NCBI GenBank assembly: GCA_016784445.1
Contig: JADHUR010000001.1
Span: forward strand, 19,464-83,463
Direction of reading: 5' to 3'
Source of the DNA: Patescibacteria group bacterium
Lineage (GTDB): Bacteria; Patescibacteriota; Patescibacteriia; UBA1558
Length of the DNA stretch: 64,000 nucleotides
The notes under the pieces are model-generated. The model searched no databases. It saw only the letters and a list, made by a program, of their open reading frames with translations, and was not told the origin of the DNA. Made by a program: the position numbers and the translations under genes. This document shows, in pieces, positions 4,728 to 46,031 of this stretch (within the stretch, counting starts at the first letter, position 1; every line of letters begins with the position of its first letter).

Positions 4728-4952
4728 ATGACCAGATTATTTTATGAGGACATTATAGCCCTCATCAAAACACAAATTGAACATGGACTTTCCATAGTTC
4801 AAGTTGAAAAATTAGGTAATATTCTTTCTGTAGAAGCTACTTCTGTAAATAAAGAAAATATACTATCTTTGTTGCAGGAGATTATAGATAATAAAGCTCC
4901 TGAAGATATTTCTGTCTATTTAAAAAAATTACAAAAGAAAATTGGAGGATAA
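4728..4952 (+). CDS. small hypothetical protein
   Basis: Strong SD GGGAGG upstream of the ATG; 74 aa. Confidence 0.4.
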   Translation: MTRLFYEDIIALIKTQIEHGLSIVQVEKLGNILSVEATSVNKENILSLLQEIIDNKAPEDISVYLKKLQKKIGG

Positions 4953-5202
4953 AATGTCAAAACAAAAACCAACCGCTCATCAAGTAATCCTAGGTAAAAT
5001 TCAAAATGCTGCAAAATCAGCAATGCATTTACCGGAATTTGAAAAAGATTTAAAATTGCTTTGTTCAATTCTGCATGAAATGCATATTCCAAAACAAGCT
5101 GTTCCCAATGTTTGTTTTAATAAAACTTGGAGAACTCTACAGTCAGTATCCGGAAACATCAACTCCTGGAAAATGTATTATGGATCTTATCCTGGATATT
5201 GA
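4942..5202 (+). CDS. small hypothetical protein
   Basis: SD GGAGGA upstream. An intrinsic terminator hairpin follows (accgttgata/tatcagcggt plus a T-run, about 5228-5256). Confidence 0.4.
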   Translation: MEDKMSKQKPTAHQVILGKIQNAAKSAMHLPEFEKDLKLLCSILHEMHIPKQAVPNVCFNKTWRTLQSVSGNINSWKMYYGSYPGY

Positions 5203-5422
5203 AAACAGGAAATAAAAAATTTAAAAAAAGACCGTTGATAATTATCAGCGGTTTTATTTTTATAATAATATTAACTTAATAAAACGACCCACAAACCTAC
5301 ATAATTAGTAATAATAACCACAACAGCTATAAGCAAATGTTCAAGAGCAATATGCCATGGTTTATTACCCTACTCTTTAGCTATATAGAAACTAAATCCT
5401 TTTTTAATAGATGTACTCATAT

Positions 5423-5842
5423 CTATATAATTTGTTTTAAGAACTCATCAATATATTTAACAGCCTCTTCATAACTCTCATAATCCTTTGTTTTAACATC
5501 CTTACAGCCTCTTACCATAGCAGACAGACGAGTACCTTTTTGCTCCCTATACAGACACAATACTTTCTTTTTATCCATCACTGCTCTACCAATTTCATAA
5601 CCGACACCTAATGAGGGGGTTGTAACTTCTGCTACCATAACATCCGCTTCAAGTAGCCAATTCATATCTCTATTATGTATAAACTCTTCTGTCTTATCTT
5701 TCTCACCCTTTTGTGTTAAATTTCTTTCACCAATATGCTCAGTTAATACTCCACCATATTTCTTTAAATAATTAATTAACTTAATGTATAGATCTACATC
5801 ATTTCTTCCTCCACGAATTGCTCCTGCAAAGTATATTTTCAT
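5423..5842 (-). CDS. 2'-deoxynucleoside 5'-phosphate N-hydrolase (DNPH1/Rcl family; nucleoside 2-deoxyribosyltransferase fold)
   Basis: YFAGAIRGGRNDVDLY...GGVLTEHIG...IHNRDMNWLLEADVMVAEVTTPSLGVGYEIGRAV...KVLCLYREQKGTRLSAMVRG aligns nearly block for block with mammalian Rcl/DNPH1 (YFCGSIRGGREDRTLY...PSLGVGYELGRAV...LSAMIRG). Confidence 0.8.
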   Translation of the reverse strand: MKIYFAGAIRGGRNDVDLYIKLINYLKKYGGVLTEHIGERNLTQKGEKDKTEEFIHNRDMNWLLEADVMVAEVTTPSLGVGYEIGRAVMDKKKVLCLYREQKGTRLSAMVRGCKDVKTKDYESYEEAVKYIDEFLKQII

Positions 5843-5847
5843 ATGAT

Positions 5848-6249
5848 TTATTTAATATTTTTTAAATCTCCTTTTAAAATAATAGGTTTCATAGCCTCTA
5901 TCTCATCACTGTATCCAAGATCTGGTACGGGATTCAATATAAATATCTTCTTATCTAAAACATAAGCAAATGCCATCTCAATCAATGTATTACCACCAAC
6001 ATAATTACTAACTCCATGTTTATCTAAATTAATAACTAATATTGCGTCTGCTTTCTTAATTTCTTCAAAATAGACCTTAAATGGATCAATTTCCATTTTT
6101 CGCCATTTATCCTCATCTACTATTTCACCTGAAGCATGTTGTTCAACATCATCTTGAATTATTACTTCATGACCTAATTTCTCCATATCTTCTTTAGCCT
6201 TAATCATTTCCTTTGCAAAGGCCATACTACTACAAATTGCTATTTTCAT
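5848..6249 (-). CDS. nucleoside 2-deoxyribosyltransferase-like fold protein (second paralogous fold)
   Basis: MKIAICSSMAF...ADAILVINLDKHGVSNYVGGNTLIEMAFAYVLDKKIFIL matches the NDT/Rcl motif D..GT.FE.GYA.A.gKP with the catalytic Glu retained. Confidence 0.55.
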   Translation of the reverse strand: MKIAICSSMAFAKEMIKAKEDMEKLGHEVIIQDDVEQHASGEIVDEDKWRKMEIDPFKVYFEEIKKADAILVINLDKHGVSNYVGGNTLIEMAFAYVLDKKIFILNPVPDLGYSDEIEAMKPIILKGDLKNIK

Positions 6250-6253
6250 ATTT

Positions 6254-6706
6254 TTAGTAAATTACTTCATTATTATCTAAATCTCTAAACATTCTCTTAA
6301 TCTTAGTTTTTAACATAACCCCACCCTTATTGTTCATAAAATCCTCAATACCTACTCTATGGCGTAATAATGTATTTAATGGTAGATTCTCTGGTGAAAA
6401 ATATTCAACTTTATCTGCTTCATCTGTTGTTATTAATTTACCACCAACAACCTCACACTCAAAATCAAAACTTATATCTTCAGCATTAGGCTTTGAATAG
6501 ACATTCACCAGCTTCTTAACCTTAACATCTAGGCCCGTCTCCTCTTTAACTTCTCTTACCACCGCATCCCAGGGTGACTCTCCCTTTTCCATGCGTCCAC
6601 CTGGCAAATTCCATTTCATTAAATCATCTCTATGGCAAAGTAAAACTTTACCTTCTTTGTTAGGAATTATAGCAAATCCACCTATTGTTACTTTATTACT
6701 TTTCAT
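6254..6706 (-). CDS. NUDIX hydrolase
   Basis: Canonical Nudix box GGRMEKGESPWDAVVREVKEETGL (GX5EX7REUXEEXGU). Confidence 0.85.
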   Translation of the reverse strand: MKSNKVTIGGFAIIPNKEGKVLLCHRDDLMKWNLPGGRMEKGESPWDAVVREVKEETGLDVKVKKLVNVYSKPNAEDISFDFECEVVGGKLITTDEADKVEYFSPENLPLNTLLRHRVGIEDFMNNKGGVMLKTKIKRMFRDLDNNEVIY

Positions 6707-6708
6707 GA

Positions 6709-6867
6709 TTAGCTCATGAACTTTCCACGACTAAAACCTAAAACACTACCGCAATGAGGACAAGAATACATTATCTCTTGTTTAATAAACCCCACTCCTT
6801 TAGTTTCTCTCTGAACTGTTTCTAATTTTATTTCCCCTTTACAATGGGGACATTTTGAAGGACTCAT
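6709..6867 (-). CDS. small zinc-ribbon protein (about 52 aa)
   Basis: Hand translation gives MSPSKCPHCKGEIKLETVQRETKGVGFIKQEIMYSCPHCGSVLGFSRGKFMS, with two CxxC pairs. It fills the gap between the NUDIX and MazG genes exactly and is below the ORF-track size cut-off. Confidence 0.4.
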   Translation of the reverse strand: MSPSKCPHCKGEIKLETVQRETKGVGFIKQEIMYSCPHCGSVLGFSRGKFMS

Positions 6868-6877
6868 ATGTTTTAAA

Positions 6878-7138
6878 TTATCTATCTTTATTCTTATTTA
6901 ATTTATGTAAAAATACTTCCTCTAAATCTAGCTTATTTATCCAACATAATTTATTTAATTGCCATAATACATCTGCAATCTCATCTTTAAGCTCTTCTCG
7001 ATCATCTTCGCGAATAGCTTCACAAACCTCCCCGACCTCTTCAACTAAATGCAATACAACTTCAGTCTCATCTTTTGGTAAACAATCTTTAATTGTCATC
7101 TGCTCCATTTGAGCAGCTTGTAATTCTGATAGGTTCAT
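6878..7138 (-). CDS. MazG-like nucleotide pyrophosphohydrolase (small all-alpha NTP-PPase)
   Basis: LVEEVGEVCEAIRE...ELKDEIADVLWQL matches the MazG EExxE...DExaDvL signature. Confidence 0.75.
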   Translation of the reverse strand: MNLSELQAAQMEQMTIKDCLPKDETEVVLHLVEEVGEVCEAIREDDREELKDEIADVLWQLNKLCWINKLDLEEVFLHKLNKNKDR

Positions 7139-7139
7139 A

Positions 7140-7478
7140 TTATTTATCTACTTTTTTAATTCTCTTAATTACAGCATCTTGAAATATTCGAAAAGCATGT
7201 CGTTTTTCTTTCACATAAATATAAGGCATGCCTATGATGAAACCACACTTATTACATTTTAAAACCTTCACATCTTTTATATTCTTCTTTTGTAAATCAA
7301 CTAATTTATCTGGACTCAATATTCTATCCATATACATTCTTCGCAAATTTCCAGGACCATCCTTTTGATACACAGCTACAATATTCTCACACTTACGGCA
7401 CATAATATTAAGTAAACGAGAATATCCACCCCTCGCCGATTTATACTTATCTTTCTTTATTGCTATCGATTTTTTCAT
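7140..7478 (-). CDS. zinc-ribbon protein, unknown function
   Basis: CRKCEN ... CNKCG is a C4 pattern; the protein is basic. It is tightly packed between the MazG-like gene and rarA. Confidence 0.4.
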   Translation of the reverse strand: MKKSIAIKKDKYKSARGGYSRLLNIMCRKCENIVAVYQKDGPGNLRRMYMDRILSPDKLVDLQKKNIKDVKVLKCNKCGFIIGMPYIYVKEKRHAFRIFQDAVIKRIKKVDK

Positions 7479-7482
7479 AGCT

Positions 7483-8724
7483 TTAATCTAAATATTTTTT
7501 ATTCTTAAGCTTCTCCGGTAAATATGTCTGATCTTCTTTATAATCATGATCTGGAGAATATTTATAACCATCACCATAACCTAAGTTTTTCATAAGCTTT
7601 GTAGGCGCATTACGAATATGTAATGGTACTGGCAAATGCATAGTAGCTTTAACATCTTGTTTAACCTTATTATATGCTCTATACAATTCATTACTCTTCT
7701 TACATTTTGCCATATATACAACAGCTTGCGCAAGGGCTAGTTCACACTCAGGCATTCCAATATTATGACAGGCATTATGAGCTGTTACTGCTTGAACAAG
7801 TGCTTGTGAATTAGCCAGGCCAATATCTTCTGATGCAAATCTAATTAATCTCCTGGCTACATATAATGGATTCTCACCAGCCTCTAGCATTCTACTAAGC
7901 CAATATAAAGAAGCATCAGCATCTGAACCACGCATACTCTTATGCAGGGCGGATATAATATTATAATGCTGCTCTCCATCTTTATCATAATATAGATTAC
8001 TATTCTGTATAGCTTGCTCAAAATCGTCTTTAATAATGCTATGTGGTCCTTTTCCCTTAGACTTAGTTAAAACTGCAAACTCGAGTGCATTTAAGGCCAC
8101 ACGGGCATCTCCAGATGCTAGACTAGCTAAATATTTAAGATCTTTTAACTTAATATTCATATCATGCTTTCCTAAGCCATTAACCTTATCTTTTAAAGCT
8201 TTCTTTAATATCTTTACAATATCTTCAATCTGCAGGGGTTCTAATACAAAAACCCTACAACGAGAAAGTAAAGCAGAAATAACTTCAAAGGACGGATTCT
8301 CTGTAGTTGCTCCAATTAAAGTAATTATTCCCCTTTCCACATATGGTAAAAGACCGTCCTGCTGCGCTTTAGTCCAACGATGTATTTCATCTATAAAAAG
8401 TATAGTTTTCTTCTGATGATGCTTTAAATTATCCTGAGCATTAGCAATAACCTGCTGCAAATCTTTCTTACCACTTGAAACAGCAGATAATTGTATAAAT
8501 TCTGAATTTGTCTTATTAGCAATAATAGCAGCCAGTGTTGTTTTACCAGTACCTGGTGGTCCCCAGAATATCATAGATGGTAATTGATCATTAGCAATTG
8601 CTTGCCTTAATATTTTATCCTTAGCTACAATATCTTTTTGACCAAAAAACTGCGTCCAATCATTAGCCCGCATTCTATCTGCCAGTGGTCTTGCTTTTAA
8701 TAAATTGTTATCAAATAAATCCAT
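7483..8724 (-). CDS. rarA: replication-associated recombination protein A (AAA+ ATPase RarA/MgsA)
   Basis: Walker A GPPGTGKTT, Walker B ILFIDEIHR, sensor LLSRCRVF, and the RarA C-terminal helical domain. Confidence 0.9.
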   Translation of the reverse strand: MDLFDNNLLKARPLADRMRANDWTQFFGQKDIVAKDKILRQAIANDQLPSMIFWGPPGTGKTTLAAIIANKTNSEFIQLSAVSSGKKDLQQVIANAQDNLKHHQKKTILFIDEIHRWTKAQQDGLLPYVERGIITLIGATTENPSFEVISALLSRCRVFVLEPLQIEDIVKILKKALKDKVNGLGKHDMNIKLKDLKYLASLASGDARVALNALEFAVLTKSKGKGPHSIIKDDFEQAIQNSNLYYDKDGEQHYNIISALHKSMRGSDADASLYWLSRMLEAGENPLYVARRLIRFASEDIGLANSQALVQAVTAHNACHNIGMPECELALAQAVVYMAKCKKSNELYRAYNKVKQDVKATMHLPVPLHIRNAPTKLMKNLGYGDGYKYSPDHDYKEDQTYLPEKLKNKKYLD

Positions 8725-29100: not shown

Positions 29101-29465
29101 ATTATTTAAAAATTTAAATTAATAAAGTGAAATTAATTCTTTAGCAAAGCTAACAACTGGTTGAATCAAATACTCCCATATTCCTATAACCAATAATGTA
29201 TAACTTATTAATATTGAGCTAAACAAAATCTTTTCTTGTTGATCCATATGTGTTAATAAAAAAATCTACGGATAAGCCGTAGAAAAGTATAGCAAAACTG
29301 CTATTTATTTACCTAAATGAGATATTTAAGGCCTTTAGCGACCACTCACTTTCTACGGTAAAAATAGTATATATTATATATATCAACATGTCAATGCTTT
29401 GACCTGTTTAAATATAAGTGCTATCTTCAAAATAGCAGTTGGTTATTGCTAGAAAGGAGGTTTAA

Positions 29466-34292: not shown

Positions 34293-35876
34293 TTATATTA
34301 AGCTCGTACCAGTCATTTGGTCGGGCTTTTTTAATTTCATAATTTTCAATATTGTAGGAGCAACATCAGATAGAATACCAGTTGGTACTTGTCCTGCTAA
34401 ATTTTGAGGTGTTACACCCGGAATTATTGCCTTACCCTTTAACTCATTTGCTAGAATATATAATGGTACAGGATTTACTGAATGTTCTTTTACCATCTCC
34501 CCTGTTTGCAAATTGAATAACTCTTCTGCATTACCATGATCTGCTGTAATCATAGCTACCCCTTCGCTCTCAAGTACTGCATCTACAATTCTACCAACAC
34601 TTTCATCAATATATTCTATAGCCTCAATAGTTGCCTTAATATTTCCTGTATGTCCCACCATGTCTGCATTGGCAAAGTTTAAAACAATAAAGTCATACTT
34701 ATCTGCCTTAATCTCTTTAAGTACTGCTTCTGTTACTTTATCTGCACTCATTTTAGGCTCTTCATCATATGATGCTATTCTAGGTGATGCAATGAGTACT
34801 CTATCCTCTCCCTCATATTCATTTTCCTTACCACCATTAAAGAAAAATGTTACATGAGCATATTTCTCTGTTTCAGCAATATGTAATTGTTTAAGACCAG
34901 CCTGAGATATAACTTTAGCAAGCGGCTCTTCTATCGCAATTGGTGGGAATGCAACTTTGATTGGTAAATCCTTCTCATACTCTGTCATTGCTACAAAATA
35001 TATATTTGGAAAATACTCACGATCAATTACTAATTTATCAAAACTCGGTAATACAAATGCTTTTGTTAATTGTCTAACTCTATCTGCTCTATAATTAAAA
35101 CATATTATTGAATCTTTATCTTTAATAATGCCTTGAGATTTATCATTCTCAATTACAACAGGAATAAACTCTTCATCATATACGCCCTGTTCATATGAAG
35201 CCTTAATAGCATCGGCTGCTGTTTTAAATTTATTAATAGACTTTCCATTTACCATTGCATCATATGCCTTTGTAATTCTCTCCCAATGATTATCTCTATC
35301 CATTGCATAATATCTTCCAGAGATTGTTGCAATTTTACCGATGCCAATACTTGTAATTTTACTTTCCAGTTTAGCAATAAATTTTTCACCTGCATTATAT
35401 GATGTATCTCTACCATCTAATATTATATGTATATACACATTTTCTACTTCTTGTTGTTTAGCAACTTCAAGTAATGCATAAAGATGTTCATTATAGCTAT
35501 GTATTCCACCATCAGACAAAAGACCAATCATATGCAATGAACTATTATTATCCTTTGCATGTTTACAGGCAGCAATAAATTCTTCATTCTCATAAAATGA
35601 ATTATCTGCAATTGCTTTAGTAATGCGTGGCAGACTCTGATAAATGATAGTACCACTTCCAAGTGATAAATGACCTACCTCTGAGTTGCCCATTTCACCC
35701 CAAGACAGCCCCACAGACTCTCCAGACGCCTGTAATGTCACAACTGGGTATTGCAAGACATAGCCGTCCAAATTAGGCGTTTTAGCAAGTTCTATAGCAT
35801 TAGCTTTAGCAGCTGGTGCTGTACCCCATCCATCTAATATCATTAAGACAACTGGCTTCGGTCTATCTTCAAACAT
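34293..35876 (-). CDS. gpmI: 2,3-bisphosphoglycerate-independent phosphoglycerate mutase (iPGM), copy 1
   Basis: VVLMILDGWG, catalytic-Ser region GNSEVGHLSLGSG, LLSDGGIHS, ISGRYYAMDRDNHWERI, ADHGNAEE. Confidence 0.9.
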   Translation of the reverse strand: MFEDRPKPVVLMILDGWGTAPAAKANAIELAKTPNLDGYVLQYPVVTLQASGESVGLSWGEMGNSEVGHLSLGSGTIIYQSLPRITKAIADNSFYENEEFIAACKHAKDNNSSLHMIGLLSDGGIHSYNEHLYALLEVAKQQEVENVYIHIILDGRDTSYNAGEKFIAKLESKITSIGIGKIATISGRYYAMDRDNHWERITKAYDAMVNGKSINKFKTAADAIKASYEQGVYDEEFIPVVIENDKSQGIIKDKDSIICFNYRADRVRQLTKAFVLPSFDKLVIDREYFPNIYFVAMTEYEKDLPIKVAFPPIAIEEPLAKVISQAGLKQLHIAETEKYAHVTFFFNGGKENEYEGEDRVLIASPRIASYDEEPKMSADKVTEAVLKEIKADKYDFIVLNFANADMVGHTGNIKATIEAIEYIDESVGRIVDAVLESEGVAMITADHGNAEELFNLQTGEMVKEHSVNPVPLYILANELKGKAIIPGVTPQNLAGQVPTGILSDVAPTILKIMKLKKPDQMTGTSLI

Positions 35877-37428
35877 GTTTTTTTGTAATCAAAGAATTAG
35901 CTGTCATAAGTTTAGGTTTCTTTACATCAAGCATATCCAGTATTGTAGGGGCTACATTAGCTAAACTTCCTGTCTTTAATTTATATTTATGCTTATTTAC
36001 AATAATGAAAGGTACTACATTATCTGTATGTTCTGTATGCACTTCTCCTGTTTCTAAATTAATCATCTCTTCAGCATTTCCATGATCGGCAACAATAATT
36101 AAACTACCATTAGTCTTATCTACTGATGCCTGTATTTGACCAACGGCCCTATCTACAGCCTCTACTGCCTTAATACCAGCAAGTAAATTACCCGTATGAC
36201 CAATCATATCTGGATTTGGAAAGTTTACACATATAAAATCATACTGTTTTTCTTTAAGACTATTAACAATTATCTTCGTTAAATCTTTAATAGACATCTC
36301 AGGTCTCATAGCATAGGACTTAACTTTAGGAGATGGAACTTTAATACGGGCCTCACCATCTACTGGATCAGCATATCCACCATTAAAAAAGTATGTAACG
36401 TGTGCAAATTTTTCACTTTCTGAAATATATAATTGAGTATAATCTTTAAGTGCCATAGGTAATGTATCTTTTACATCTTCACTTGGATAGGCAACTAATA
36501 TTTCACCGAGATCTGGACCAAAATCTGTCATCGCAACAAATTTAATATTCTTAAACACTCTTTGCCTATGAAATGACTCTGGATTCATCTTGCCAAAATC
36601 TTTTTGAACAAAAGCTTTTACTAATTGTCTAGCCCTATCTGATCTTAAATTAAAGAAAAATACCGAATCATTTTCTTTAATAGTAACTATAGATTTTGCA
36701 TCTTTAGCAATAATTGTTGGCTTGATATATTCATCTGTCTCATTTCTATTATATGCTTGTAATATAGCTTCCTCTGGAGTACTAACAAGTCTACCAGTAC
36801 CTTTTGTTAAAAGATCATATGCTTTCTGAGTTCTTGTCCATGATTTATTCCTATCCATTGCATAAAATCTACCCATGATAGAAACAATCTTTTCTCCATT
36901 TTTGAAACCTTTCTTCACCTCATCAAGATATGTTAAAGCTGCATGCTGCGGAGCATCTCTACCATCTGTAAATAGATGAATATATACATTAGCAACATTG
37001 TGCTGCTTCATTAATTCTAATAATCTCAATAAATGGCCACGTTCTGCATGCGCTGATTCATGGCCAGATAATAATCCCATTAAATGGATAGCGGATTTAT
37101 TCTTCTTTGCATATTTAATTGCATCAATAAATGCAGGGTTTTTAAAGAACCTACCACTAGCAATGGCATCATTAATAATAACTGAATCTTGCTTTACAAT
37201 TCTTCCTGCTCCTAAATTTAAATGGCCAGCCTCTGAATTACCAAATTGATTACGAGGAAGGCCAACATATTTACCAGAAGCTTGCAAAGTTGTATGAGAA
37301 TAATTATCCCAAAACTTATCTATATTCGGTGTATTAGCTATTGCTATTGCATTACCTTTGGAGGGCTTGGCGAGTCCCCATCCATCTAATATTGCAAGAA
37401 CTATTGGTTTATATTCTTTATTTGTCAT
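35869..37428 (-). CDS. gpmI: iPGM paralog, copy 2 (divergent metal-site motif)
   Basis: IVLAILDGWG, GNSEAGHLNLGAG, MGRFYAMDRNKSWTRT and ADHGNAEE are conserved, but the SDGGVHSH box reads LLSGHESAHAERGH. Confidence 0.85.
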   Translation of the reverse strand: MTNKEYKPIVLAILDGWGLAKPSKGNAIAIANTPNIDKFWDNYSHTTLQASGKYVGLPRNQFGNSEAGHLNLGAGRIVKQDSVIINDAIASGRFFKNPAFIDAIKYAKKNKSAIHLMGLLSGHESAHAERGHLLRLLELMKQHNVANVYIHLFTDGRDAPQHAALTYLDEVKKGFKNGEKIVSIMGRFYAMDRNKSWTRTQKAYDLLTKGTGRLVSTPEEAILQAYNRNETDEYIKPTIIAKDAKSIVTIKENDSVFFFNLRSDRARQLVKAFVQKDFGKMNPESFHRQRVFKNIKFVAMTDFGPDLGEILVAYPSEDVKDTLPMALKDYTQLYISESEKFAHVTYFFNGGYADPVDGEARIKVPSPKVKSYAMRPEMSIKDLTKIIVNSLKEKQYDFICVNFPNPDMIGHTGNLLAGIKAVEAVDRAVGQIQASVDKTNGSLIIVADHGNAEEMINLETGEVHTEHTDNVVPFIIVNKHKYKLKTGSLANVAPTILDMLDVKKPKLMTANSLITKKHV

Positions 37429-38684: not shown

Positions 38685-39800
38685 TTATTTATTATTTAAT
38701 TTTTTTAATATTGGTAATTGCTTACTCTCTAAATATTGAAGCATTGCTCCCCCTCCAGTAGATATGAAATTATAGTATTTATGTAAATTCAAATGCTTAA
38801 TAATTGCTAATGTTTCGCCTCCACCTACAATTGTTTTTGCCTTAGCTGAAGCTATTGCCATAGCGACTGCATAACTTCCTTTTTCATAACCAACCCTTTC
38901 AAATACTCCCATTGGACCGTTCCAAATAATAGTCTTTGCTCCTTTTATTATATCCGAATAATACTCTATTGTAATTGGCCCAATGTCTAATATTTTATCA
39001 TAATTCTTAACTTCTGCCACAGGTTTAATTATTCTCTTATTCCTTGACTCAACAACCACATCTATTGGTAAAAGTATCTTTTTATTCAATAATTTCTGAC
39101 ACATATCTACCATTTCTGGCTCATATAATGATTTACCGATTGGTAAATCTAATGCTTTCAAAAAATTATTAGCAAGTGCACCACCTACTATTAAATAATC
39201 TACTTGTGGTAATAGTTTTTTAATTAGCTGGACTTTTGTAGATATCTTTGCACCGCCCATTACAGCAACGCCACCTTTAGATTTTCTTAAATCTAAATTC
39301 TGTAATTCATGTTCAAATCTATAGCCAATATATGTTGGTAAATAATCTGGTAAATAATATACTGATGAATCATTTCTATGACTTGATGCGAATGACTCAA
39401 ATACAAAATAATCTCCTAGGTCTGCCAATTCCTTAGCAAATTTTTTACTTCCCTTTTGTTCTTCCTTATTAAAACGAATATTCTCTAAGAGTATTAATTT
39501 CGCACCACTGTCTTCTACTTTCAAATAATCTGTTATAAACTCTACTTTCCGTTTTAGTAACTTCTCTAAACTATTTACAACTGGTTTTAGACTTAAAGAT
39601 CTATCTATTCCCTCGGGTCTTCCAAAATGAGATATTAAAACAACCTTTGCTTTTTGTTTAAGAAGATAATTAATTGTAGGTAATGCTGCCTCAATCTTAA
39701 AATCATCCAAAACTTTTCTACCTTTAAGAGGTACATTAAAATCTACACGTACAAGTACTGTCTTATCCTTTATATTTTTTAATGTTTTAAGTTTTTTCAT
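38685..39800 (-). CDS. pgk: phosphoglycerate kinase
   Basis: VLVRVDFNVPL ... the hinge and ATP-binding motifs; the start overlaps the upstream gene's stop (ATGA). Confidence 0.95.
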   Translation of the reverse strand: MKKLKTLKNIKDKTVLVRVDFNVPLKGRKVLDDFKIEAALPTINYLLKQKAKVVLISHFGRPEGIDRSLSLKPVVNSLEKLLKRKVEFITDYLKVEDSGAKLILLENIRFNKEEQKGSKKFAKELADLGDYFVFESFASSHRNDSSVYYLPDYLPTYIGYRFEHELQNLDLRKSKGGVAVMGGAKISTKVQLIKKLLPQVDYLIVGGALANNFLKALDLPIGKSLYEPEMVDMCQKLLNKKILLPIDVVVESRNKRIIKPVAEVKNYDKILDIGPITIEYYSDIIKGAKTIIWNGPMGVFERVGYEKGSYAVAMAIASAKAKTIVGGGETLAIIKHLNLHKYYNFISTGGGAMLQYLESKQLPILKKLNNK

Positions 39801-42800
39801 TCTACTTTCTTTGGTCTTAATATTACTTCATGCATTGTATCACCGCCCTGAGAATAACTACCTTTCTCTTCCATGATAAACTCTACGCCAATATCTTTAC
39901 CTAACTTATCCAATTGTTTGTTTATTATCTTATATGACGTCTTGTCTCTCAACTGAGCATATATCGGCAGCATATTATCTTTTTCAGCATAATGCTTTTT
40001 ATACAGCTCTGTAAATGCTAGAATCAATGAACCACCTGCCTTAACACTACCATCTGAAGCCATATCTGACACATAGATAACGGATTCTCCATTTTTATCT
40101 ATTTTACCCTCATAAGATAATAGATAGCCATGCATTTTTCCTTTTGTATCCTCATATTTTATACTCATATTTGGCCTATCTTTAGCTGCATTATTAACGT
40201 CCTTTGCTATAAGAGCATTCTCCATGTTATGTAAATACTCTATTAAACTTTCATTGTCTTTATATGCTTTACCCTCGATATAAGAAACTCGCAAACTATC
40301 ATGGAAATCTAAAGGTTTAACTCCTTTAGGTAATTTAATACCCTCACTAACATCAGATTCAACAGCCCTTCTAACTTTCTTTTTAAATCCTTTTGCACCC
40401 TTCTCTTCCTCTAATCCCAACCTATAAGCTTGACGTCCCAAATTATCACTGTAAGCAACTGGTGCTTCTGGGGTAAAAGTATTGGCAACGGTCGGTAAAT
40501 CGGTCAAAGCATCTGTATATCCCATACCAACAATTACTTGGCCCATATCTAGTTCATCTTGCTCTCCATACAAAGATAAGTATTCTCTAAAATAATCCTC
40601 ATATATATCTTTAATAACCGCTTTATCTCCAGAAAAGTTTTGAGCAACCTCAATATTGTCACATGTTATGATTCCCGGCTTATCAATCAATAAATCTTCC
40701 TCTACCAATTCATTTAATTTAACTTTGGACGATGTCATTTGCTTAACTACATCAGCTATATTTTTGTTAATATCTATATTTCTAGTTAAAACACTTTGTG
40801 CAACTGTACGCCACGTGCCATCAGCAGTTTTCCTTTGAATAGTAAATAAAGAACAGATTGGGTTAAAAGTATATACATTGTTCTTACCAGATCCAAAAGG
40901 CATACAACAAGCTGTATCATTGCCAGCCACTACTCCATCAGGATCAGATTTTTTGTTAATTTTAGCTCTATACTCAATCCTAGGTGACTTACTCGATAAA
41001 CCAATCTCACTATCTAACAACAATTCTCTAGCCTGATCTATTACAAGTTCCGCTTCCGGAAAATCCTCAGCTACATTTGCTGATTGCAAATAATCAATTA
41101 ATTTAATATTAGATTGTTTAAATAATTTAGTAAGTTCACTAAAAAGCTTGTTTGGATTTTTAGCTTTACCTTTTATCCCTTCACTCCGCTTACCAACCGC
41201 CTGCCAAATCACATCAGGTAAAGGCTTAGCCTCGGCCTCAACTCCACCAAACTTATATTCAATTTCTAAAGATTTAAAGGATTGAATCTTATCATAGTCA
41301 CCCGCAATCAATGCATCACGTAATTCTTCCCCAGTTAAATCCAAATTTGGAATATCAGTATAGTTCGATGGCTTCTTCCTTCTCTGAACATCCTCTGGCG
41401 TATGAGCATCATCAAGCTCTAAAAAACTATCAATATCTTGCCAAAAATCCATTACTTTCTTTAAAGCTATATTAGGATGAAATGCTAAAGTCTCCACATA
41501 TCTATATAAATCTTCTTTACCCTCAACCTTTAAAGACTGTAGCTTATCTAATATTTCCTTTCTCTTTAATAAATCATTAATCTCACTGTATTTTTTCAAT
41601 AATTTCCAGGACCCAAAAATTTGTTCAGGTGATTCAATCTCATCTAAAAGTTCTTGTAATTTTGTAATGTTTGGATATTTTCTAGCATCATTAATAACAG
41701 CCCCAAAATCAGTGTTAACATTCATAGCTAAACTATTTAATGTATGATGAGCAGTGCCCCATTCATACTCCGCATCATCCTGTTGTACTTGTTTTAATAT
41801 ATTATTGAAAAATTGCTCGGGTTTAAGACCGGACTCTTTATATAAAACATAAATCTGATTAAAATTATGCAACCCATCATGACGTGACAACCCATCCCTG
41901 TCTAAATACTCAAATACAGCAGACGCTCCAAACGCTTCTTTGGCAACATCAAATGGATCTATAATATTCTGCTCATCTTCCCAAATATCTGAATTTTCTT
42001 TTAATATTTCATAGAACTTATCTGCCTGTTCATCCCTACTTAAACTTTCATCAACACTATCTTCCACTAAATAATACTCCGATGGCCTTAAATGATACGA
42101 CTTAGCTTTTTCAAACCAATCTCCTTCGAAACTGTTCACATTTTTATCAACAATTTCCGCCTTGCCATCTTCAAGTAGTCTACTAACTACCTCTTTACTG
42201 AGAGAAGAAAAATTACCAAGATTTTCAGAAACTGCTCCACTCATAAATGAATCCAATATTTTAAGAGCTACTTCATTATGATTAATTCCTGAAAAATTAT
42301 TAAGATTTTCTGCAAGAGCATAACATTCTTGGGCATCTATCATTCTATATACTATCTCCTCATGATTAATACCTGAAAACTGATCAAGATTTCTTGCTAC
42401 AGACTTAGCTGCATGATGTTCAACCATCATAAGCGCAACCTGATTATCAAGACCTGAAAATGCCTGAAAATTATCGGCTACACCCTCTGATTGTTCCAAC
42501 TCTATTAACTTCATAGCAATCTCTTTATCGAGCCCACTAAAACTACTAGAATATCCATGAACCATCCACGGCTTCTCAGACTTTATTAGTTCTAGTGCCA
42601 CCTCTTTATCTAGTCCACTAAAATTTCTCAGAGTTTCTCCAAAATCAATGGAAAGATTGCCAGCCTTAATTATTTTTAAAGCTATCTGCTTATGATCAAG
42701 TCCGGAAAACTTATGCAAATGAGTTGCAACTACACTTCCTTGACCCGCGTTAATCATCTTAAGGGCTATCTTCTTGCGATCAAGATCCGAAAAATTGTTT

Positions 42801-44314
42801 AAATTTATAGCTAAAAATTCTGCTTGATCTGTTTCTATCATTTTTAAGGCCACCCATTTATGATCAAGTCCAGAAAAATTATTTAAATTCTCAACTACTA
42901 CTGATGCCTGATCTGTTACCATCATTTTTAAAACAATCTCTTTATGATCAAGTCCTGGAAATTTATTAAGATTCTCAGCCACTACTGATGCCCATCGTGC
43001 TTCTATTATTTTTAAAGCTGACTCTCGATTTAAATTGTCAAAAGAATCAAAATTTAAAAATATGGCCTTCATGCTGTTAACTGATATCAATTGCGATGCT
43101 ACTTCTCCGTCCAAGTTAGAAAATTTATCGAGATTATTTAACACTACACCCAAATCACCTGCATTAATGGCCATTAGAGCTATTTTCTTGTAATTTATTT
43201 TTGTAAAATTATTAATTTTTCTAACCACAGTAGCAGCTGCGCCCAATTCAATCATCTTTAAAGCTATCTCGTTATCAAGTCTAGAAAATAAACTTAAATG
43301 CTCCACTAAAGGCATGACCTGACCCATATCAAGAATTTTAATAGCTAATTCTTTATGATCTAAACCCTTAAAATTATTTAAATATTTTGCTACATATCTA
43401 CCTTTACCTTCCTCAACCATTTTCATAGCTATCTCTTTGTGATTCAAATTTCTAAAATTTGATAAGTACTCAGCTACATATTCACACCCATCCTCTGTAT
43501 CAGCTTCAATTAATTTCATAGCTATCTCCCAATTATCTACCTCTTTAAGTTTATATAAATTACTTGTTACAAACTTTACATCACCGACTTCGATTGACTT
43601 TAAAATTACTTTAGTATCAATATTTTTAAAGAAAACAAAATTTTCAGTGACACTCTTGCCATCACCTGCCTCAATTAGTTTCATAGCAATATCTTTATGA
43701 TATGCCTCGTTAACTTTATCAATGTGTCTAGCTACGTATTTACCAGCACCTGCATCTATTACTCTGATAAGGATTTCCTTTTGATTCTCCTTAGCAAATT
43801 CATTAATAAACTCAGCTGCATATTCACCCGCACCTGCATCTATAGTCTTCATAATGAATTCTTTACGATCTACTCCTGTAAAATGTTTTAAACTCCTCAA
43901 TACGACACTGGGGTAATTAGCATTTATTAAGGCCATTGCAATTTGCTCATGATCTGTTTCTTTAAAATTATCAATATACTTAACCAAAAGAACAATGTCG
44001 TCCCCTAATACTTCTATTATTTTTGAGACCAACTCCTTATGATTTACTCCATTGATAAACTGTAAATTTTTTAAAAGAAAATCTACCCTTCCCGATTTCA
44101 TAAATTTACTTATATCACGCTTCCTATCCCAAGGAGCTTGAAAACCATCATCAGACCGTGTTTCTAAAAAACTACCGTCTAGTAAATCTGAAACTACTCC
44201 ATCCAAGTCTACCTGCTGTTTACTCGTAAGAGTGTCCACGTTACCATTTTCTTCATTTTCAATAGAATTTTTATTTTCAATCGGAATATTCGGTTGTTGT
44301 TCTGGATTAAACAT
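39797..44314 (-). CDS. giant (1505 aa) tandem-repeat protein: about 24 copies of a 28-aa alpha-helical-type repeat, then a roughly 700-aa non-repetitive C-terminal region; no signal peptide or TM
   Basis: An uninterrupted 4.5-kb ORF. The repeat consensus is roughly NLNNFSGLDHKEIALKMIEAGQGSVVAE, with period 28 aa, spanning about aa 90-790. The start is 1 nt after the hypC stop and the stop overlaps the pgk start. Confidence 0.7.
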   Translation of the reverse strand: MFNPEQQPNIPIENKNSIENEENGNVDTLTSKQQVDLDGVVSDLLDGSFLETRSDDGFQAPWDRKRDISKFMKSGRVDFLLKNLQFINGVNHKELVSKIIEVLGDDIVLLVKYIDNFKETDHEQIAMALINANYPSVVLRSLKHFTGVDRKEFIMKTIDAGAGEYAAEFINEFAKENQKEILIRVIDAGAGKYVARHIDKVNEAYHKDIAMKLIEAGDGKSVTENFVFFKNIDTKVILKSIEVGDVKFVTSNLYKLKEVDNWEIAMKLIEADTEDGCEYVAEYLSNFRNLNHKEIAMKMVEEGKGRYVAKYLNNFKGLDHKELAIKILDMGQVMPLVEHLSLFSRLDNEIALKMIELGAAATVVRKINNFTKINYKKIALMAINAGDLGVVLNNLDKFSNLDGEVASQLISVNSMKAIFLNFDSFDNLNRESALKIIEARWASVVAENLNKFPGLDHKEIVLKMMVTDQASVVVENLNNFSGLDHKWVALKMIETDQAEFLAINLNNFSDLDRKKIALKMINAGQGSVVATHLHKFSGLDHKQIALKIIKAGNLSIDFGETLRNFSGLDKEVALELIKSEKPWMVHGYSSSFSGLDKEIAMKLIELEQSEGVADNFQAFSGLDNQVALMMVEHHAAKSVARNLDQFSGINHEEIVYRMIDAQECYALAENLNNFSGINHNEVALKILDSFMSGAVSENLGNFSSLSKEVVSRLLEDGKAEIVDKNVNSFEGDWFEKAKSYHLRPSEYYLVEDSVDESLSRDEQADKFYEILKENSDIWEDEQNIIDPFDVAKEAFGASAVFEYLDRDGLSRHDGLHNFNQIYVLYKESGLKPEQFFNNILKQVQQDDAEYEWGTAHHTLNSLAMNVNTDFGAVINDARKYPNITKLQELLDEIESPEQIFGSWKLLKKYSEINDLLKRKEILDKLQSLKVEGKEDLYRYVETLAFHPNIALKKVMDFWQDIDSFLELDDAHTPEDVQRRKKPSNYTDIPNLDLTGEELRDALIAGDYDKIQSFKSLEIEYKFGGVEAEAKPLPDVIWQAVGKRSEGIKGKAKNPNKLFSELTKLFKQSNIKLIDYLQSANVAEDFPEAELVIDQARELLLDSEIGLSSKSPRIEYRAKINKKSDPDGVVAGNDTACCMPFGSGKNNVYTFNPICSLFTIQRKTADGTWRTVAQSVLTRNIDINKNIADVVKQMTSSKVKLNELVEEDLLIDKPGIITCDNIEVAQNFSGDKAVIKDIYEDYFREYLSLYGEQDELDMGQVIVGMGYTDALTDLPTVANTFTPEAPVAYSDNLGRQAYRLGLEEEKGAKGFKKKVRRAVESDVSEGIKLPKGVKPLDFHDSLRVSYIEGKAYKDNESLIEYLHNMENALIAKDVNNAAKDRPNMSIKYEDTKGKMHGYLLSYEGKIDKNGESVIYVSDMASDGSVKAGGSLILAFTELYKKHYAEKDNMLPIYAQLRDKTSYKIINKQLDKLGKDIGVEFIMEEKGSYSQGGDTMHEVILRPKKVE
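41950..44050. repeat. intragenic tandem repeat array, period about 84 bp, about 24 units (encodes the 28-aa protein repeats)
   Basis: Recurrent nucleotide blocks such as tcaagtcc(a/g)gaaaa...ttaa(a/g)ttctca are visible by eye; the coordinates are approximate and derived from the protein repeat span. Confidence 0.55.
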
Positions 44315-44780: not shown

Positions 44781-46031
44781 TTAATGTGTTGCGCAACTAA
44801 TACAAGGATCGTATGCGCGTATTAATAGTCTAATCTTTTGTCTTCTTTCTTTTGCTGTCATATCTTTAATATTTGGTAAATACATTGCTAAATCATCCTC
44901 AAGATTAAATAAAAATTGAGCTGTTGGAGTAATAATATTACAATCTTGAATAATTCCATCCTTGTCTAATTTATAATAATGGAATAATGTACCACGTGGT
45001 GCCTCCATGGCAGCTACTGCAAAACATTCCTTTACCCTATACTCTACCTGTCCTTCTTCCTTTAATTTTAAATCTTTCAATATCTTTTGTGATTCTTCCA
45101 ACATATGCACCAGCTCGACAGCTTGAGCTAGAATATTATAGAAAGAATTATATGTAGGTAATTTTACCCCAGATTCTTTTAATAGAGCTTTAGCTCTTGG
45201 ATTAAGTTGACTATGATTATTATTTAGCCTGGCAATAGCACCCACCATAAAAGACTTACCGGATAATTTAGCCTTCTTTACAGCTTCATACTGTTTTTTA
45301 ATCTCCGTTATCTTCTTACTAAATTTAGTACTAGATATTGTTTCTTCTTCTGAAGATTTAATATCTCCAGAATATATGCCATATTCCTTATCATTAAATA
45401 AACAAATATATTCTGTCTTTCTATTAAGTTCCGGATAATTTAATTTAATAAATAATTTAACAAGCTTTTCTGCTTTTTTAATTAAAGCTGGTAAACGATC
45501 ATTGATTTCATCTAAATCTTCTTGGGCTGGTAATATTTTAAACCCACCAACTTGTGAAGTAATGGGGTGAACAGTTCTACCACCAATTAAACGAATAAGG
45601 TCTGTTGCCCATCTACGAATATCCATTGCCATGTCCGCTTCCTTTGGATGTTTCTTTATTAATTGAAGGTCATTGAGTATTCCATAGAAATCGGGTAATG
45701 ATAAAAAGAATAAATGTAAACCATGACTATGTATTATTTGAGAATATTGCATTAACTTTCTTAAAGTCCTTGTTTGATCTGTTACTTTTACCTCTAATGC
45801 TTTTTCTAAGGACTCAATAGCTGTTAAATTATGTACAACCGGACAAATACCACAAATACGGGCAGTAATAATTGGAGCATCCATATAGTGACGACCAATG
45901 AGCATACCCTCAATAAGTCTAGCTCCTTCTTGTGTTTCAATTTTAGCTAATGCGACATTACCTTCTAAAATATGACCAACAAAACCAGCATGACCTTCCA
46001 TTTTTGCTAAATGATTTATTTGTATCTTCAT
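44781..46031 (-). CDS. [NiFe]-hydrogenase large (alpha) subunit, cytoplasmic group-3-type; ends exactly at the C-terminal His (no cleavable extension)
   Basis: L1 motif RICGICPVVH near the N-terminus and L2 motif DPCISCATH as the last residues; 416 aa. Confidence 0.9.
   Translation of the reverse strand: MKIQINHLAKMEGHAGFVGHILEGNVALAKIETQEGARLIEGMLIGRHYMDAPIITARICGICPVVHNLTAIESLEKALEVKVTDQTRTLRKLMQYSQIIHSHGLHLFFLSLPDFYGILNDLQLIKKHPKEADMAMDIRRWATDLIRLIGGRTVHPITSQVGGFKILPAQEDLDEINDRLPALIKKAEKLVKLFIKLNYPELNRKTEYICLFNDKEYGIYSGDIKSSEEETISSTKFSKKITEIKKQYEAVKKAKLSGKSFMVGAIARLNNNHSQLNPRAKALLKESGVKLPTYNSFYNILAQAVELVHMLEESQKILKDLKLKEEGQVEYRVKECFAVAAMEAPRGTLFHYYKLDKDGIIQDCNIITPTAQFLFNLEDDLAMYLPNIKDMTAKERRQKIRLLIRAYDPCISCATH

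What the first reader, a model, noticed from the sequence alone, without database searches (positions are those of the whole stretch)
5423..7478. Compact nucleotide-sanitation/salvage cluster: DNPH1/Rcl-like, a second deoxyribosyltransferase-fold protein, NUDIX, MazG-like, two zinc ribbons
Seen in the sequence, six tightly packed minus-strand genes:
- The first aligns block for block with mammalian DNPH1/Rcl (PSLGVGYEIGRAV ... LSAMVRG).
- The second has the NDT catalytic-Glu box (GGNTLIEMAFA).
- Then come a canonical Nudix box, a 52-aa CxxC...CxxC ORF, a MazG EExxE/DExxD protein, and a 112-aa C4 zinc ribbon.
- rarA is immediately upstream.

Established knowledge:
- DNPH1 cleaves dNMPs to base plus deoxyribose-5-P.
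- Nudix and MazG enzymes remove non-canonical (d)NTPs.
- The same enzyme set is typical of phage nucleotide-modification modules.

Inference: in an organism expected to lack de novo nucleotide synthesis, this could be a dedicated deoxynucleotide scavenging and cleansing module. It could also be a captured phage module that edits the dNTP pool, which might be relevant to defence.
Basis: partly seen in the sequence, partly recalled or inferred. Interest (0 to 1): 0.6.

Follow-up and report, generated by a model that had tools for sequence, protein, structure and literature searches.

The report
Nucleotide clean-up operon in Patescibacteria
A run of small genes in a tiny-genome bacterium encodes enzymes that probably destroy faulty DNA/RNA building blocks in two steps; most are ordinary, but one belongs to an unannotated enzyme family that is repeatedly found fused to such clean-up enzymes.

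Summary
The six minus-strand ORFs exist as described and follow rarA in one tightly packed run that ends at a hairpin terminator. ORF1 is a true DNPH1/Rcl orthologue: E ~5e-38 to solved structures, with every catalytic and phosphate-binding residue conserved. ORF3 is a NUDIX hydrolase with a canonical Nudix box. ORF5 is a short MazG.

The best reading is a chromosomal two-step disposal set: aberrant (d)NTP to (d)NMP + PPi, then N-glycosidic cleavage.

The "112-aa zinc ribbon" is a basic beta-tent protein with an independent distribution, and the 52-aa CxxC ORF is lineage-specific. Neither is shown to belong to the module. The phage-capture and defence readings have no support. Tight packing is the genome's norm. 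The full six-gene order recurs in one relative, and only MazG–x–NUDIX–ORF2 recurs in another.

Overall the cluster is mostly ordinary, apart from one uncharacterised family that is worth assaying.

The parts
5423..5842 (-). ORF1, DNPH1/Rcl-type 2'-deoxynucleoside 5'-phosphate N-hydrolase (139 aa). The catalytic Glu83 codon is at 5594-5596.
   Evidence: PF05014 E 5.8e-15, 55.9 bits against a cut-off of 28.8. Solved rat and human DNPH1 match at E 5e-38 to 2e-35. Y4, H36, D59, S77, E83 and S107 are invariant and E35 is nearly invariant in the family alignment A2. They correspond to human Y24, H56, D80, S98, E104, S128 and E55 (PMC10603095).
5848..6249 (-). ORF2, an unannotated NDT-fold protein (133 aa) from a Patescibacteria/DPANN family. 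The near-invariant Glu91 codon is at 5977-5979.
6254..6706 (-). ORF3, NUDIX hydrolase (150 aa). The Nudix box (residues 37-59) lies at 6530-6598.
   Evidence: PF00293 E 6.6e-20, 71.9 bits against a cut-off of 21.1. The box was read from the translation. The closest solved structures are generic MutT/NUDIX proteins, E 1e-14. No NCBIfam equivalog reaches its cut-off.
6709..6867 (-). ORF4, a 52-aa CxxC...CxxC protein. Its role in the module is not established.
   Evidence: Only sub-threshold zinc-ribbon matches, the best being PF08274 at 24.5 bits against a cut-off of 30.8. It is conserved in relative L004. In L001 an unrelated 85-aa hydrophobic ORF without Cys takes its place.
6878..7138 (-). 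ORF5, a short single-domain MazG-type NTP pyrophosphohydrolase (86 aa). The EExxE...DExxD metal-binding motifs (residues 33-56) lie at 6971-7042.
   Evidence: PF03819 E 2.5e-14, 53.7 bits against a cut-off of 22. The closest solved structure is SSO3215 (1vmg), E 3.6e-5.
7140..7478 (-). ORF6, a 112-aa very basic C4 zinc protein with a beta-tent (Yippee/Mis18, MsrB, CULT, RIG-I-CTD-like) fold. It is co-transcribed here but is probably not part of the nucleotide module.
7483..8724 (-). rarA/mgsA (413 aa), the replication-associated AAA+ ATPase and first gene of the seven-gene run.
   Evidence: PF12002 E 3e-59, plus PF16193 and PF00004. The gap to ORF6 is 4 bp. rarA occupies the same position in relatives L001 and L004.
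5228..5255 (.). A 12-bp-stem hairpin flanked by T-runs. It is the likely bidirectional terminator that closes the rarA-to-ORF1 unit and the convergent plus-strand pair.
   Evidence: Terminator scan and the sequence read.
5274..5420 (-). Internally deleted remnant (pseudogene) of the VIT1-family gene that follows the cluster in relatives.
   Evidence: tblastn against L004 VIT1 matches residues 1-14 and 115-157, E 2e-22, with an in-frame stop. blastn identity is 84%. The intact L004 gene matches PF01988.

Best explanation
This is an ordinary chromosomal operon, rarA to ORF1, of a Patescibacteria (CPR) bacterium. Its 3' part encodes a two-stage system for removing non-canonical nucleotides.

Stage 1 (family membership shown, substrates inferred): the MazG-type and NUDIX-type pyrophosphohydrolases convert aberrant (d)NTPs into (d)NMP + PPi, so polymerases cannot use them.

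Stage 2: two deoxyribosyltransferase-fold proteins cleave the N-glycosidic bond of the monophosphates. This gives free base plus (deoxy)ribose-5-phosphate, so the aberrant nucleotide cannot be re-phosphorylated and its sugar phosphate returns to metabolism.
- ORF1 is a full DNPH1 orthologue. Its active site is shown by sequence; its activity is inferred from the family.
- ORF2 belongs to a previously unannotated family of the same fold, restricted mostly to Patescibacteria and DPANN archaea. It keeps the catalytic-position Glu but has an otherwise different set of conserved residues. Its link to NTP pyrophosphatases is shown by gene fusions and neighbourhoods. Its chemistry and substrate are inferred.

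The 52-aa CxxC ORF and the 112-aa beta-tent protein are co-transcribed passengers with no demonstrated role in this chemistry.
For: - Family assignments rest on curated cut-offs and solved structures.
- ORF1 conserves all DNPH1 catalytic and phosphate-binding residues.
- Divergent ORF2-family members give repeated sub-threshold PF05014 hits in one register, profile positions about 15-100.
- The best profile-profile alignment is full length and places E91 on DNPH1 E83. E91 is conserved in 105 of 106 diverse members.
- Among 32 long family representatives, 7 are fused to NTPase_I-T, 2 to NUDIX, 2 to MazG and 1 to Maf.
- Among 111 immediate same-strand neighbours in about 75 species genomes, NUDIX is the commonest family (12). 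Maf, NTPase_I-T, UDG and HD occur twice each, and H+-PPase three times.
- MazG-x-NUDIX-ORF2 is kept between rarA and Band_7 in all three related genomes. Relative L004 adds an inorganic-pyrophosphatase-like gene right after DNPH1.
- There is an experimental precedent for the same two-step logic. In phages, the dNTP pyrophosphatase DutZ is encoded next to, or fused with, the NDT-fold dNMP N-glycosidase DmtZ (PMC12884076).
Against: - ORF2 itself passes no sequence-family threshold. hhalign against the DNPH1 family is not significant (probability 1-3%).
- ORF2 lacks the Tyr and Asp of the NDT/DNPH1 triad and lacks DNPH1's phosphate-binding loop and serines. N-glycosidase activity on monophosphates is therefore only an inference.
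- Most ORF2-family genes (about 85% of loci) are not next to any recognisable NTP pyrophosphatase.
- DNPH1 is adjacent to ORF2 only in this lineage.
- Tight packing is the genome's norm, so co-transcription says little.
- The NUDIX and MazG substrates are unassigned.
Confidence: 0.6

Rival explanations
1. Coincidental juxtaposition. These are independent small housekeeping genes that sit side by side only because the genome is extremely compact and this rarA-to-Band_7 interval accumulates and loses small genes. There is no pathway-level coupling.
For: - The median same-strand gap is 4 bp, coding density is 93%, and other 6-7-gene runs exist.
- The interval's content varies between relatives. 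Ser_hydrolase, DUF1653, PPase-like, VIT1, ORF6 and DNPH1 come and go, and a VIT1 pseudogene lies in the window.
- DNPH1 is next to ORF2 in only 2 of roughly 75 lineages.
- ORF6 is unlinked elsewhere.
Against: - ORF2 domains are fused to four different NTP pyrophosphatase families.
- NUDIX makes up 12 of 111 neighbours, the top family.
- The four nucleotide-hydrolase-type genes are the only ones in 64 kb and they are contiguous.
Confidence: 0.2
2. ORF2 is a classical nucleoside 2-deoxyribosyltransferase. It would swap bases between deoxynucleosides for salvage in an auxotrophic symbiont, acting on nucleosides rather than on the monophosphate products of the pyrophosphatases.
For: - ORF2 lacks DNPH1's phosphate-binding residues.
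- The family is concentrated in Patescibacteria and DPANN, which depend on salvage (background in PMC7304191, listed).
Against: - The Tyr and Asp partners of the NDT triad are not conserved.
- Fusions are to NTP pyrophosphatases, whose products are monophosphates.
- No nucleoside kinase or phosphorylase appears among the top neighbour families.
Confidence: 0.12
3. ORF2 is a TIR-like NAD+/ADP-ribose glycohydrolase that works with the NUDIX protein (as an ADP-ribose pyrophosphatase), possibly in signalling or defence.
For: - TIR and NDT share the catalytic-Glu position (established knowledge).
- NUDIX is the commonest neighbour.
Against: - The sub-threshold sequence hits are to PF05014, not to TIR families.
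- Fusion partners such as NTPase_I-T, Maf and MazG act on (d)NTPs, not NAD.
- There is no PADLOC match and the context is housekeeping.
Confidence: 0.05
4. This is a captured phage nucleotide-modification module, or an anti-phage defence module that edits the dNTP pool.
For: - Phages do encode NDT-like, MazG and NUDIX genes. PHROG families match ORF1, ORF3 and ORF5 generically.
- The NUDIX protein matches the candidate PADLOC family PDC-S07.
Against: - tblastn finds no hit for ORF1 or ORF2 in 50,697 phage genomes, and there are no relatives in IMG/VR.
- GC content, about 31%, is the same as the flanks.
- No integrase, tRNA junction or phage structural genes are nearby.
- The chromosomal position is the same in relatives.
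Confidence: 0.03

Closest known systems
DNPH1 / Rcl (2'-deoxynucleoside 5'-phosphate N-hydrolase; hmdUMP hydrolase), PDB 4fyh, 2khz, 8os9
   Same: ORF1 aligns over about 125 residues at E ~1e-37. It carries Tyr, Glu-His, Asp, Ser, Glu and Ser at all functional positions. It has the same size and no extra domains.
   Different: ORF1 is prokaryotic. It belongs to a very large bacterial and archaeal set (more than 6,000 homologues) that pipelines label 'nucleoside 2-deoxyribosyltransferase'. Its physiological substrate in a CPR bacterium is unknown.
DutZ-DmtZ of Z-genome phages (dNTP pyrophosphatase plus NDT-fold dNMP N-glycosidase/phosphodeoxyribosyltransferase), PMC12884076
   Same: The logic and architecture are the same: an NTP pyrophosphatase encoded next to, or fused with, an NDT-fold enzyme that acts on the resulting monophosphate. 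ORF2-family proteins show the same adjacency and fusion pattern.
   Different: The partners here are NUDIX, MazG, NTPase_I-T and Maf, not Dut-like. The genes are cellular and chromosomal (Patescibacteria, DPANN), not phage. ORF2 has no detectable sequence similarity to DNPH1-type proteins. No activity data exist for it.
Nucleoside 2-deoxyribosyltransferases (PF05014; e.g. 6evs, 7o62, 1f8x)
   Different: ORF2 does not reach the PF05014 cut-off. It lacks the Tyr/Asp partners. It has a beta-hairpin insertion (residues 75-83) before the Glu helix. Its own conserved set is S8, H/Y60, D68, N74, K77, Y83, E91, K100 and E116.
CMP/hmCMP N-glycosidases MilB and BcmB
   Different: They are antibiotic-biosynthesis enzymes in actinomycete or clostridial clusters, and they show no sequence-level relationship to ORF2.
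House-cleaning NTP pyrophosphatases (MutT-type NUDIX, MazG, Maf, ITPase/NTPase_I-T)
   Same: ORF3 and ORF5 are members by curated cut-offs and motifs. Maf activity on modified NTPs is documented in PMC3899018.
   Different: No equivalog-level assignment is possible. Every NCBIfam hit is far below its cut-off, so substrates are unknown.

Membership tests
DNPH1/Rcl subfamily of PF05014 (ORF1) | Matches the Nuc_deoxyrib_tr profile above the curated cut-off | tested here: met
   55.9 bits against 28.8, E 5.8e-15
DNPH1/Rcl subfamily of PF05014 (ORF1) | Catalytic triad Tyr24 / Asp80 / Glu104 (human numbering) | tested here: met
   Y4, D59 and E83 are present and invariant in 24 homologues. Residue roles are from PMC10603095.
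DNPH1/Rcl subfamily of PF05014 (ORF1) | 5'-phosphate binding serines (S98, S128') and the Glu55-His56 helical element | tested here: met
   S77, S107 and H36 are invariant and E35 is nearly invariant
DNPH1/Rcl subfamily of PF05014 (ORF1) | Hydrolyses dNMP/hmdUMP to base plus deoxyribose-5-phosphate | not testable with these tools
   Needs an enzyme assay
Nucleoside 2-deoxyribosyltransferase superfamily (ORF2) | NDT-type flavodoxin-like alpha/beta fold | tested here: met
Nucleoside 2-deoxyribosyltransferase superfamily (ORF2) | Sequence-profile membership (PF05014, PF15891 or related) at the curated cut-off | tested here: not met
   ORF2 has no Pfam family at E <= 0.1. The A1 profile finds no NDT in PDB sequences. 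hhalign probability is 1-3%. Only sub-threshold PF05014 hits (19-28 bits) occur, on divergent members.
Nucleoside 2-deoxyribosyltransferase superfamily (ORF2) | Nucleophilic Glu at the start of the helix after the central strand | tested here: inconclusive
   E91 is conserved in 105 of 106 members. It lies in helix 86-97 after strand 80-83 and aligns with DNPH1 E83 in the best, but non-significant, alignment. No structural superposition output was available.
Nucleoside 2-deoxyribosyltransferase superfamily (ORF2) | Tyr (strand 1) and Asp (helix 3) partners of the catalytic triad | tested here: not met
   Strand 1 reads IAICSSM, with C6 and S8 conserved and no Tyr. The Asp position aligns to Y/H60-F61.
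NUDIX hydrolases (ORF3) | PF00293 above the cut-off and the Nudix box GX5EX7REUXEEXGU | tested here: met
   71.9 bits against 21.1. The box spans residues 37-59, read from the translation.
MutT / other NUDIX equivalogs (ORF3) | Reaches an NCBIfam equivalog cut-off | tested here: not met
   The best hit is 41.6 bits against a cut-off of 245; MutT scores 41.2 against 97.9
MazG all-alpha NTP pyrophosphohydrolases (ORF5) | PF03819 above the cut-off and the EExxE...DExxD metal-binding motifs | tested here: met
   53.7 bits against 22. The motifs are E33-E34-x-x-E37 and D52-E53-x-x-D56.
Zinc ribbon (ORF4) | Two CxxC knuckles, and membership of a defined zinc-ribbon family | tested here: inconclusive
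   CPHC...CPHC is present. All Pfam and NCBIfam zinc-ribbon hits are below their cut-offs.
Beta-tent fold proteins: Yippee/Mis18, MsrB, CULT, RIG-I CTD (ORF6) | Beta-tent fold with a Zn site formed by two CxxC motifs | tested here: inconclusive
Phage nucleotide-modification module / anti-phage defence system | Homologues in phage genomes or defence-system models, and a mobile or island context | tested here: not met
   No phage or IMG/VR relatives of ORF1 or ORF2. PADLOC gives only a generic NUDIX hit. Neighbours are housekeeping genes and the position is conserved. GC content is uniform.
TIR-domain NADases (ORF2, considered) | TIR sequence-family match, or TIRs as best structural match | tested here: not met

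The most novel reading that the evidence does not exclude
The ORF2 family is a new class of nucleotide N-glycosidase, or phospho(deoxy)ribosyl-transferase like phage DmtZ. It is widespread in Patescibacteria and DPANN archaea and has its own catalytic constellation (Ser8, His/Tyr60, Asn74, Lys77, Tyr83, Glu91, Glu116). It would act directly on the monophosphate products of four different house-cleaning pyrophosphatase families. This would give ultra-small symbionts a dedicated 'second step' that irreversibly destroys damaged nucleotides while recycling the sugar phosphate, or even re-loading it with a correct base.
Probability: 0.35. Interest if true: 0.6.

Novelty: new variant of a known kind. 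Interest (0 to 1): 0.4.

Why it matters
Patescibacteria and DPANN archaea live on scavenged nucleotides, so the quality of their (d)NTP pool depends on what they import. A dedicated two-step route (pyrophosphatase, then N-glycosidase) would explain how they stop damaged or modified nucleotides from cycling back into the pool.

The practical gain is a concrete, testable function for a large protein family (about 1,500 cluster representatives) that has no annotation today. The natural fusion proteins (ORF2 domain with NTPase_I-T, NUDIX, MazG or Maf) are ready-made candidates for coupled assays. NDT-fold enzymes are also used as biocatalysts for nucleoside analogues, so a divergent active site could be useful.

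The rest of the cluster (DNPH1, NUDIX, MazG, rarA) is ordinary and already recognised by standard annotation.

Tried and rejected
- **Sequence routes to classify ORF2.** Pfam, NCBIfam, PHROGs, PADLOC, phmmer against PDB, and a family profile against PDB all gave nothing meaningful.
- **hhalign of the ORF2 family against the DNPH1 family.** The result was not significant, both with the tool and locally with a more diverse alignment. I used the latter only to show residue register.
- **The afdb50 fold library** was unavailable.
- **The phage-origin idea** was rejected after four negative searches.
- **The defence idea** was rejected. PADLOC gave only a generic NUDIX match to a candidate family and a spurious Cas8b hit.
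- **The JGI label 'predicted RNA-binding protein with PUA domain'** on some ORF2 homologues is not supported by any profile or by the fold.
- **Tight gene spacing as evidence of coupling** was rejected, because it is the genome-wide norm.
- **Looking for deoC, deoB or nucleoside kinases.** None appears in the annotated parts of the window. The window is only 64 kb and its last ~8 kb were not annotated, so this says nothing about the whole genome.
- **Literature searches** for a described NDT-like partner of house-cleaning NTPases in CPR/DPANN found none in the held library. The only precedent found is the phage DutZ-DmtZ pair.
Full report
**1. The observation**

One search confirms six minus-strand ORFs at exactly the reported coordinates. 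They are 5423-5842 (139 aa), 5848-6249 (133 aa), 6254-6706 (150 aa), 6709-6867 (52 aa), 6878-7138 (86 aa) and 7140-7478 (112 aa). Gaps between them are 1-10 bp. They are preceded, 4 bp upstream, by a 413-aa rarA/mgsA gene (PF12002, E 3e-59).

A 12-bp-stem hairpin with flanking T-runs at 5228-5255 closes the unit. All quoted motifs are present in the translations.

The window is about 31% GC throughout, with no compositional break at the cluster. An exact copy of ORF2 is on record as a hypothetical protein of a 'Patescibacteria group bacterium'.

**2. What each gene is**

*ORF1* passes PF05014 (55.9 bits against a cut-off of 28.8). It matches solved rat and human DNPH1/Rcl at E 5e-38 to 2e-35 over about 125 residues. 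The residues that PMC10603095 defines are the triad Y24/D80/E104, the E55-H56 element, and the phosphate-binding S98 and S128'. They correspond to Y4, D59, E83, E35, H36, S77 and S107 of ORF1. Six of these are invariant and E35 is nearly invariant in an alignment of 24 homologues. ORF1 is therefore a bona fide DNPH1 orthologue. It is not rare: more than 6,000 homologues, and all 120 listed carry PF05014, occur across bacteria and archaea.

*ORF3* is a NUDIX hydrolase (71.9 bits against 21.1) with a canonical Nudix box at residues 37-59. *ORF5* is a short MazG (53.7 bits against 22) with EExxE and DExxD motifs. Neither reaches any equivalog-level model or has a close characterised structure. 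Their substrates therefore remain open.

*ORF2* was the real unknown. It has no hit in Pfam, NCBIfam, PHROGs, PADLOC or PDB sequences, and its family profile also finds nothing in PDB.
- It belongs to a strongly conserved family of about 133 aa (55-88% identity among the first 120 hits) found in Patescibacteria and in DPANN archaea.
- An exhaustive profile search finds 1,509 cluster representatives.
- Of 80 species-level loci, 33 carry explicit Patescibacteria names and 23 carry DPANN names. Ten are unspecific, and 14 carry other labels that look unreliable. One 'Gammaproteobacteria' locus shares its synteny with a Falkowbacteria locus.
- An AlphaFold model built from 35 sequences is confident (pLDDT 89.6, pTM 0.83).
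- Foldseek's best matches are all from the deoxyribosyltransferase superfamily: NDTs, BcmB, DNPH1 and YtoQ, probability 1.0.

At the sequence level the link is weak:
- hhalign against the DNPH1 family is not significant.
- The best alignment is nevertheless full length and collinear, and it puts E91 (EMAFA) on DNPH1 E83 (EIGRA).
- Several divergent members give sub-threshold PF05014 hits in one consistent register.
- E91 is conserved in 105 of 106 diverse representatives, and N74 and E116 in all 106.
- ORF2 lacks the Tyr and Asp of the NDT/DNPH1 triad and DNPH1's phosphate-binding elements. It also has a beta-hairpin insertion before the Glu helix.

ORF2 is therefore a distinct family of the superfamily, not a member of PF05014 as currently defined.

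*ORF4* has two CxxC knuckles but no family above cut-off.

**3. Is the cluster a unit?**

Tight spacing is not informative. The window's median same-strand gap is 4 bp, coding density is about 93%, and other 6-7-gene runs exist.

Synteny is partial:
- Relative L004 has all six genes in the same order between rarA and Band_7. It also has DUF1653, an inorganic-pyrophosphatase-like gene (PF00719, 28.8 bits against 23.5) and an intact VIT1 gene.
- Relative L001 (Komeilibacteria) keeps only MazG, an unrelated 85-aa ORF, NUDIX and ORF2. A serine hydrolase replaces ORF6 and VIT1 replaces DNPH1.
- In the window itself the VIT1 gene is an internally deleted remnant.

The interval therefore gains and loses small genes around a stable MazG...NUDIX-ORF2 core.

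Across about 75 other species, ORF2-family genes sit in many contexts. Among 111 immediate same-strand neighbours, NUDIX is the most frequent Pfam family (12). Maf, NTPase_I-T, UDG and HD occur twice each. H+-pyrophosphatase (3), RFC-type AAA+ (3-4) and Pol III alpha (2) also recur.

The strongest functional evidence comes from gene fusions. Among 32 long family representatives, 7 carry NTPase_I-T (the ITP/XTPase family), 2 carry NUDIX, 2 carry MazG and 1 carries Maf. Two more are tandem ORF2 domains. All four partner families are pyrophosphatases that turn non-canonical (d)NTPs into monophosphates. Maf activity is documented in PMC3899018.

**4. Mechanism**

The best-supported reading is a two-step disposal route. 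In step one, MazG and NUDIX hydrolyse aberrant (d)NTPs to (d)NMP + PPi. In step two, DNPH1 and, by inference, ORF2 cleave the N-glycosidic bond of the monophosphate.

Shown:
- family memberships;
- the intact DNPH1 active site;
- the ORF2 fold and its near-invariant Glu;
- the fusion and neighbourhood link of ORF2 to NTP pyrophosphatases.

Inferred:
- the actual substrates;
- that ORF2 is catalytically an N-glycosidase or transferase;
- that it acts on monophosphates.

The same architecture has an experimentally characterised precedent in Z-genome phages. There the dNTP pyrophosphatase DutZ is adjacent to, or fused with, the NDT-fold dAMP N-glycosidase/phosphodeoxyribosyltransferase DmtZ (PMC12884076).

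The position downstream of rarA, and the recurrence of RFC, Pol III alpha and UDG next to ORF2 homologues, fit a role in protecting replication. This is only suggestive.

**5. Rivals**

- *Pure coincidence in a compact genome* remains possible for the full six-gene set, especially for DNPH1, ORF4 and ORF6. It does not explain the fusions.
- *A classical nucleoside NDT role for ORF2* is compatible with the fold and with the missing phosphate site. It is less compatible with the fusion partners.
- *A TIR-like NADase role* is weakly possible from the fold alone.
- *The phage-capture/defence reading* is not supported. ORF1 and ORF2 have no relatives in 50,697 phage genomes or in IMG/VR. Composition is uniform. 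The chromosomal position is conserved. The surrounding 64 kb is ordinary Patescibacteria chromosome: an ABC exporter, CYTH, HtrA-like protease, the dcw cluster, L10/L12, glycolysis genes, NiFe hydrogenase and DnaX.

**6. Novelty and verdict**

DNPH1, NUDIX, MazG and rarA are already recognised by standard annotation, and a sanitation cluster of this kind is unsurprising in a salvage-dependent organism. What is new is the assignment of ORF2's large, unannotated Patescibacteria/DPANN family to the deoxyribosyltransferase fold, with a divergent active site. Also new is its repeated fusion to four families of house-cleaning pyrophosphatases.

This makes it a new variant of a known kind with a directly testable function. 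Interest is moderate (0.4).

Noticed in passing
window 5274-5420 (-): The 'empty' stretch downstream of DNPH1 is a decayed VIT1-family gene. Residues 1-14 are joined to residues 115-157 of the intact orthologue in L004/L001, with an in-frame stop. The deletion appears to lie between two GFSF-encoding repeats. Relative L004 also has a 114-aa inorganic-pyrophosphatase-like gene here that the window lacks.
   Followed up: yes
window 4728-4952 (+) and 4954-5202 (+): Two small convergent genes (74 and 82 aa) abut each other. They are conserved at the same position in relatives L001 and L004 (phmmer E 1e-10 to 1e-18) and have no Pfam family. The arrangement resembles a toxin-antitoxin pair, but nothing supports that.
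   Followed up: partly
window 7140-7478 (-): ORF6 belongs to a highly conserved, very basic, roughly 112-aa C4 protein family. It is found across many Patescibacteria lineages, has a beta-tent (Yippee/CULT/RIG-I-CTD-like) predicted fold, and has no Pfam model. Its high conservation and charge suggest a nucleic-acid-binding housekeeping role.
   Followed up: partly
P0482; loci L007-L086: The ORF2-type domain is fused once to a class II Asp/Asn-tRNA synthetase, and four of its neighbours carry the tRNA_anti-codon OB domain. In DPANN loci it often sits beside RFC subunits, in Falkowbacteria beside Pol III alpha, and in three loci beside H+-pyrophosphatase. None of this is explained.
   Followed up: no
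P0369, P0419, P0444, P0465, P0499: Several ORF2-family proteins carry an N-terminal extension of about 115-125 aa. It has no confident Pfam match and no similarity to the ORF2 domain. P0361 and P0362 are tandem duplications of the domain.
   Followed up: partly
window 34293-35876 and 35869-37428 (-): Two tandem, overlapping paralogues of cofactor-independent phosphoglycerate mutase (PF01676 + PF06415, 527 and 519 aa) lie next to enolase and PGK.
   Followed up: no
window 39797-44314 (-): A 1,505-aa ORF with no Pfam hit on record lies between hypC/hypA-like genes and pgk, downstream of a NiFe-hydrogenase gene cluster (44781-50759).
   Followed up: no
loci L013, L019, L031, L039, L051, L060, L074, L077, L078, L086, L008, L027, L030, L043: Fourteen of the 80 genomes that encode ORF2 homologues are labelled Gammaproteobacteria, Methanosarcinales or Verrucomicrobiota. 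All are co-assembly TPA MAGs. L078 ('Gammaproteobacteria') shares gene order with L081 (Falkowbacteria), so these taxonomic labels are probably wrong.
   Followed up: partly
window 29249-29376 (-): An Rfam L10_leader match (46.6 bits against a gathering score of 44) lies upstream of the rplJ-rplL genes.
   Followed up: no
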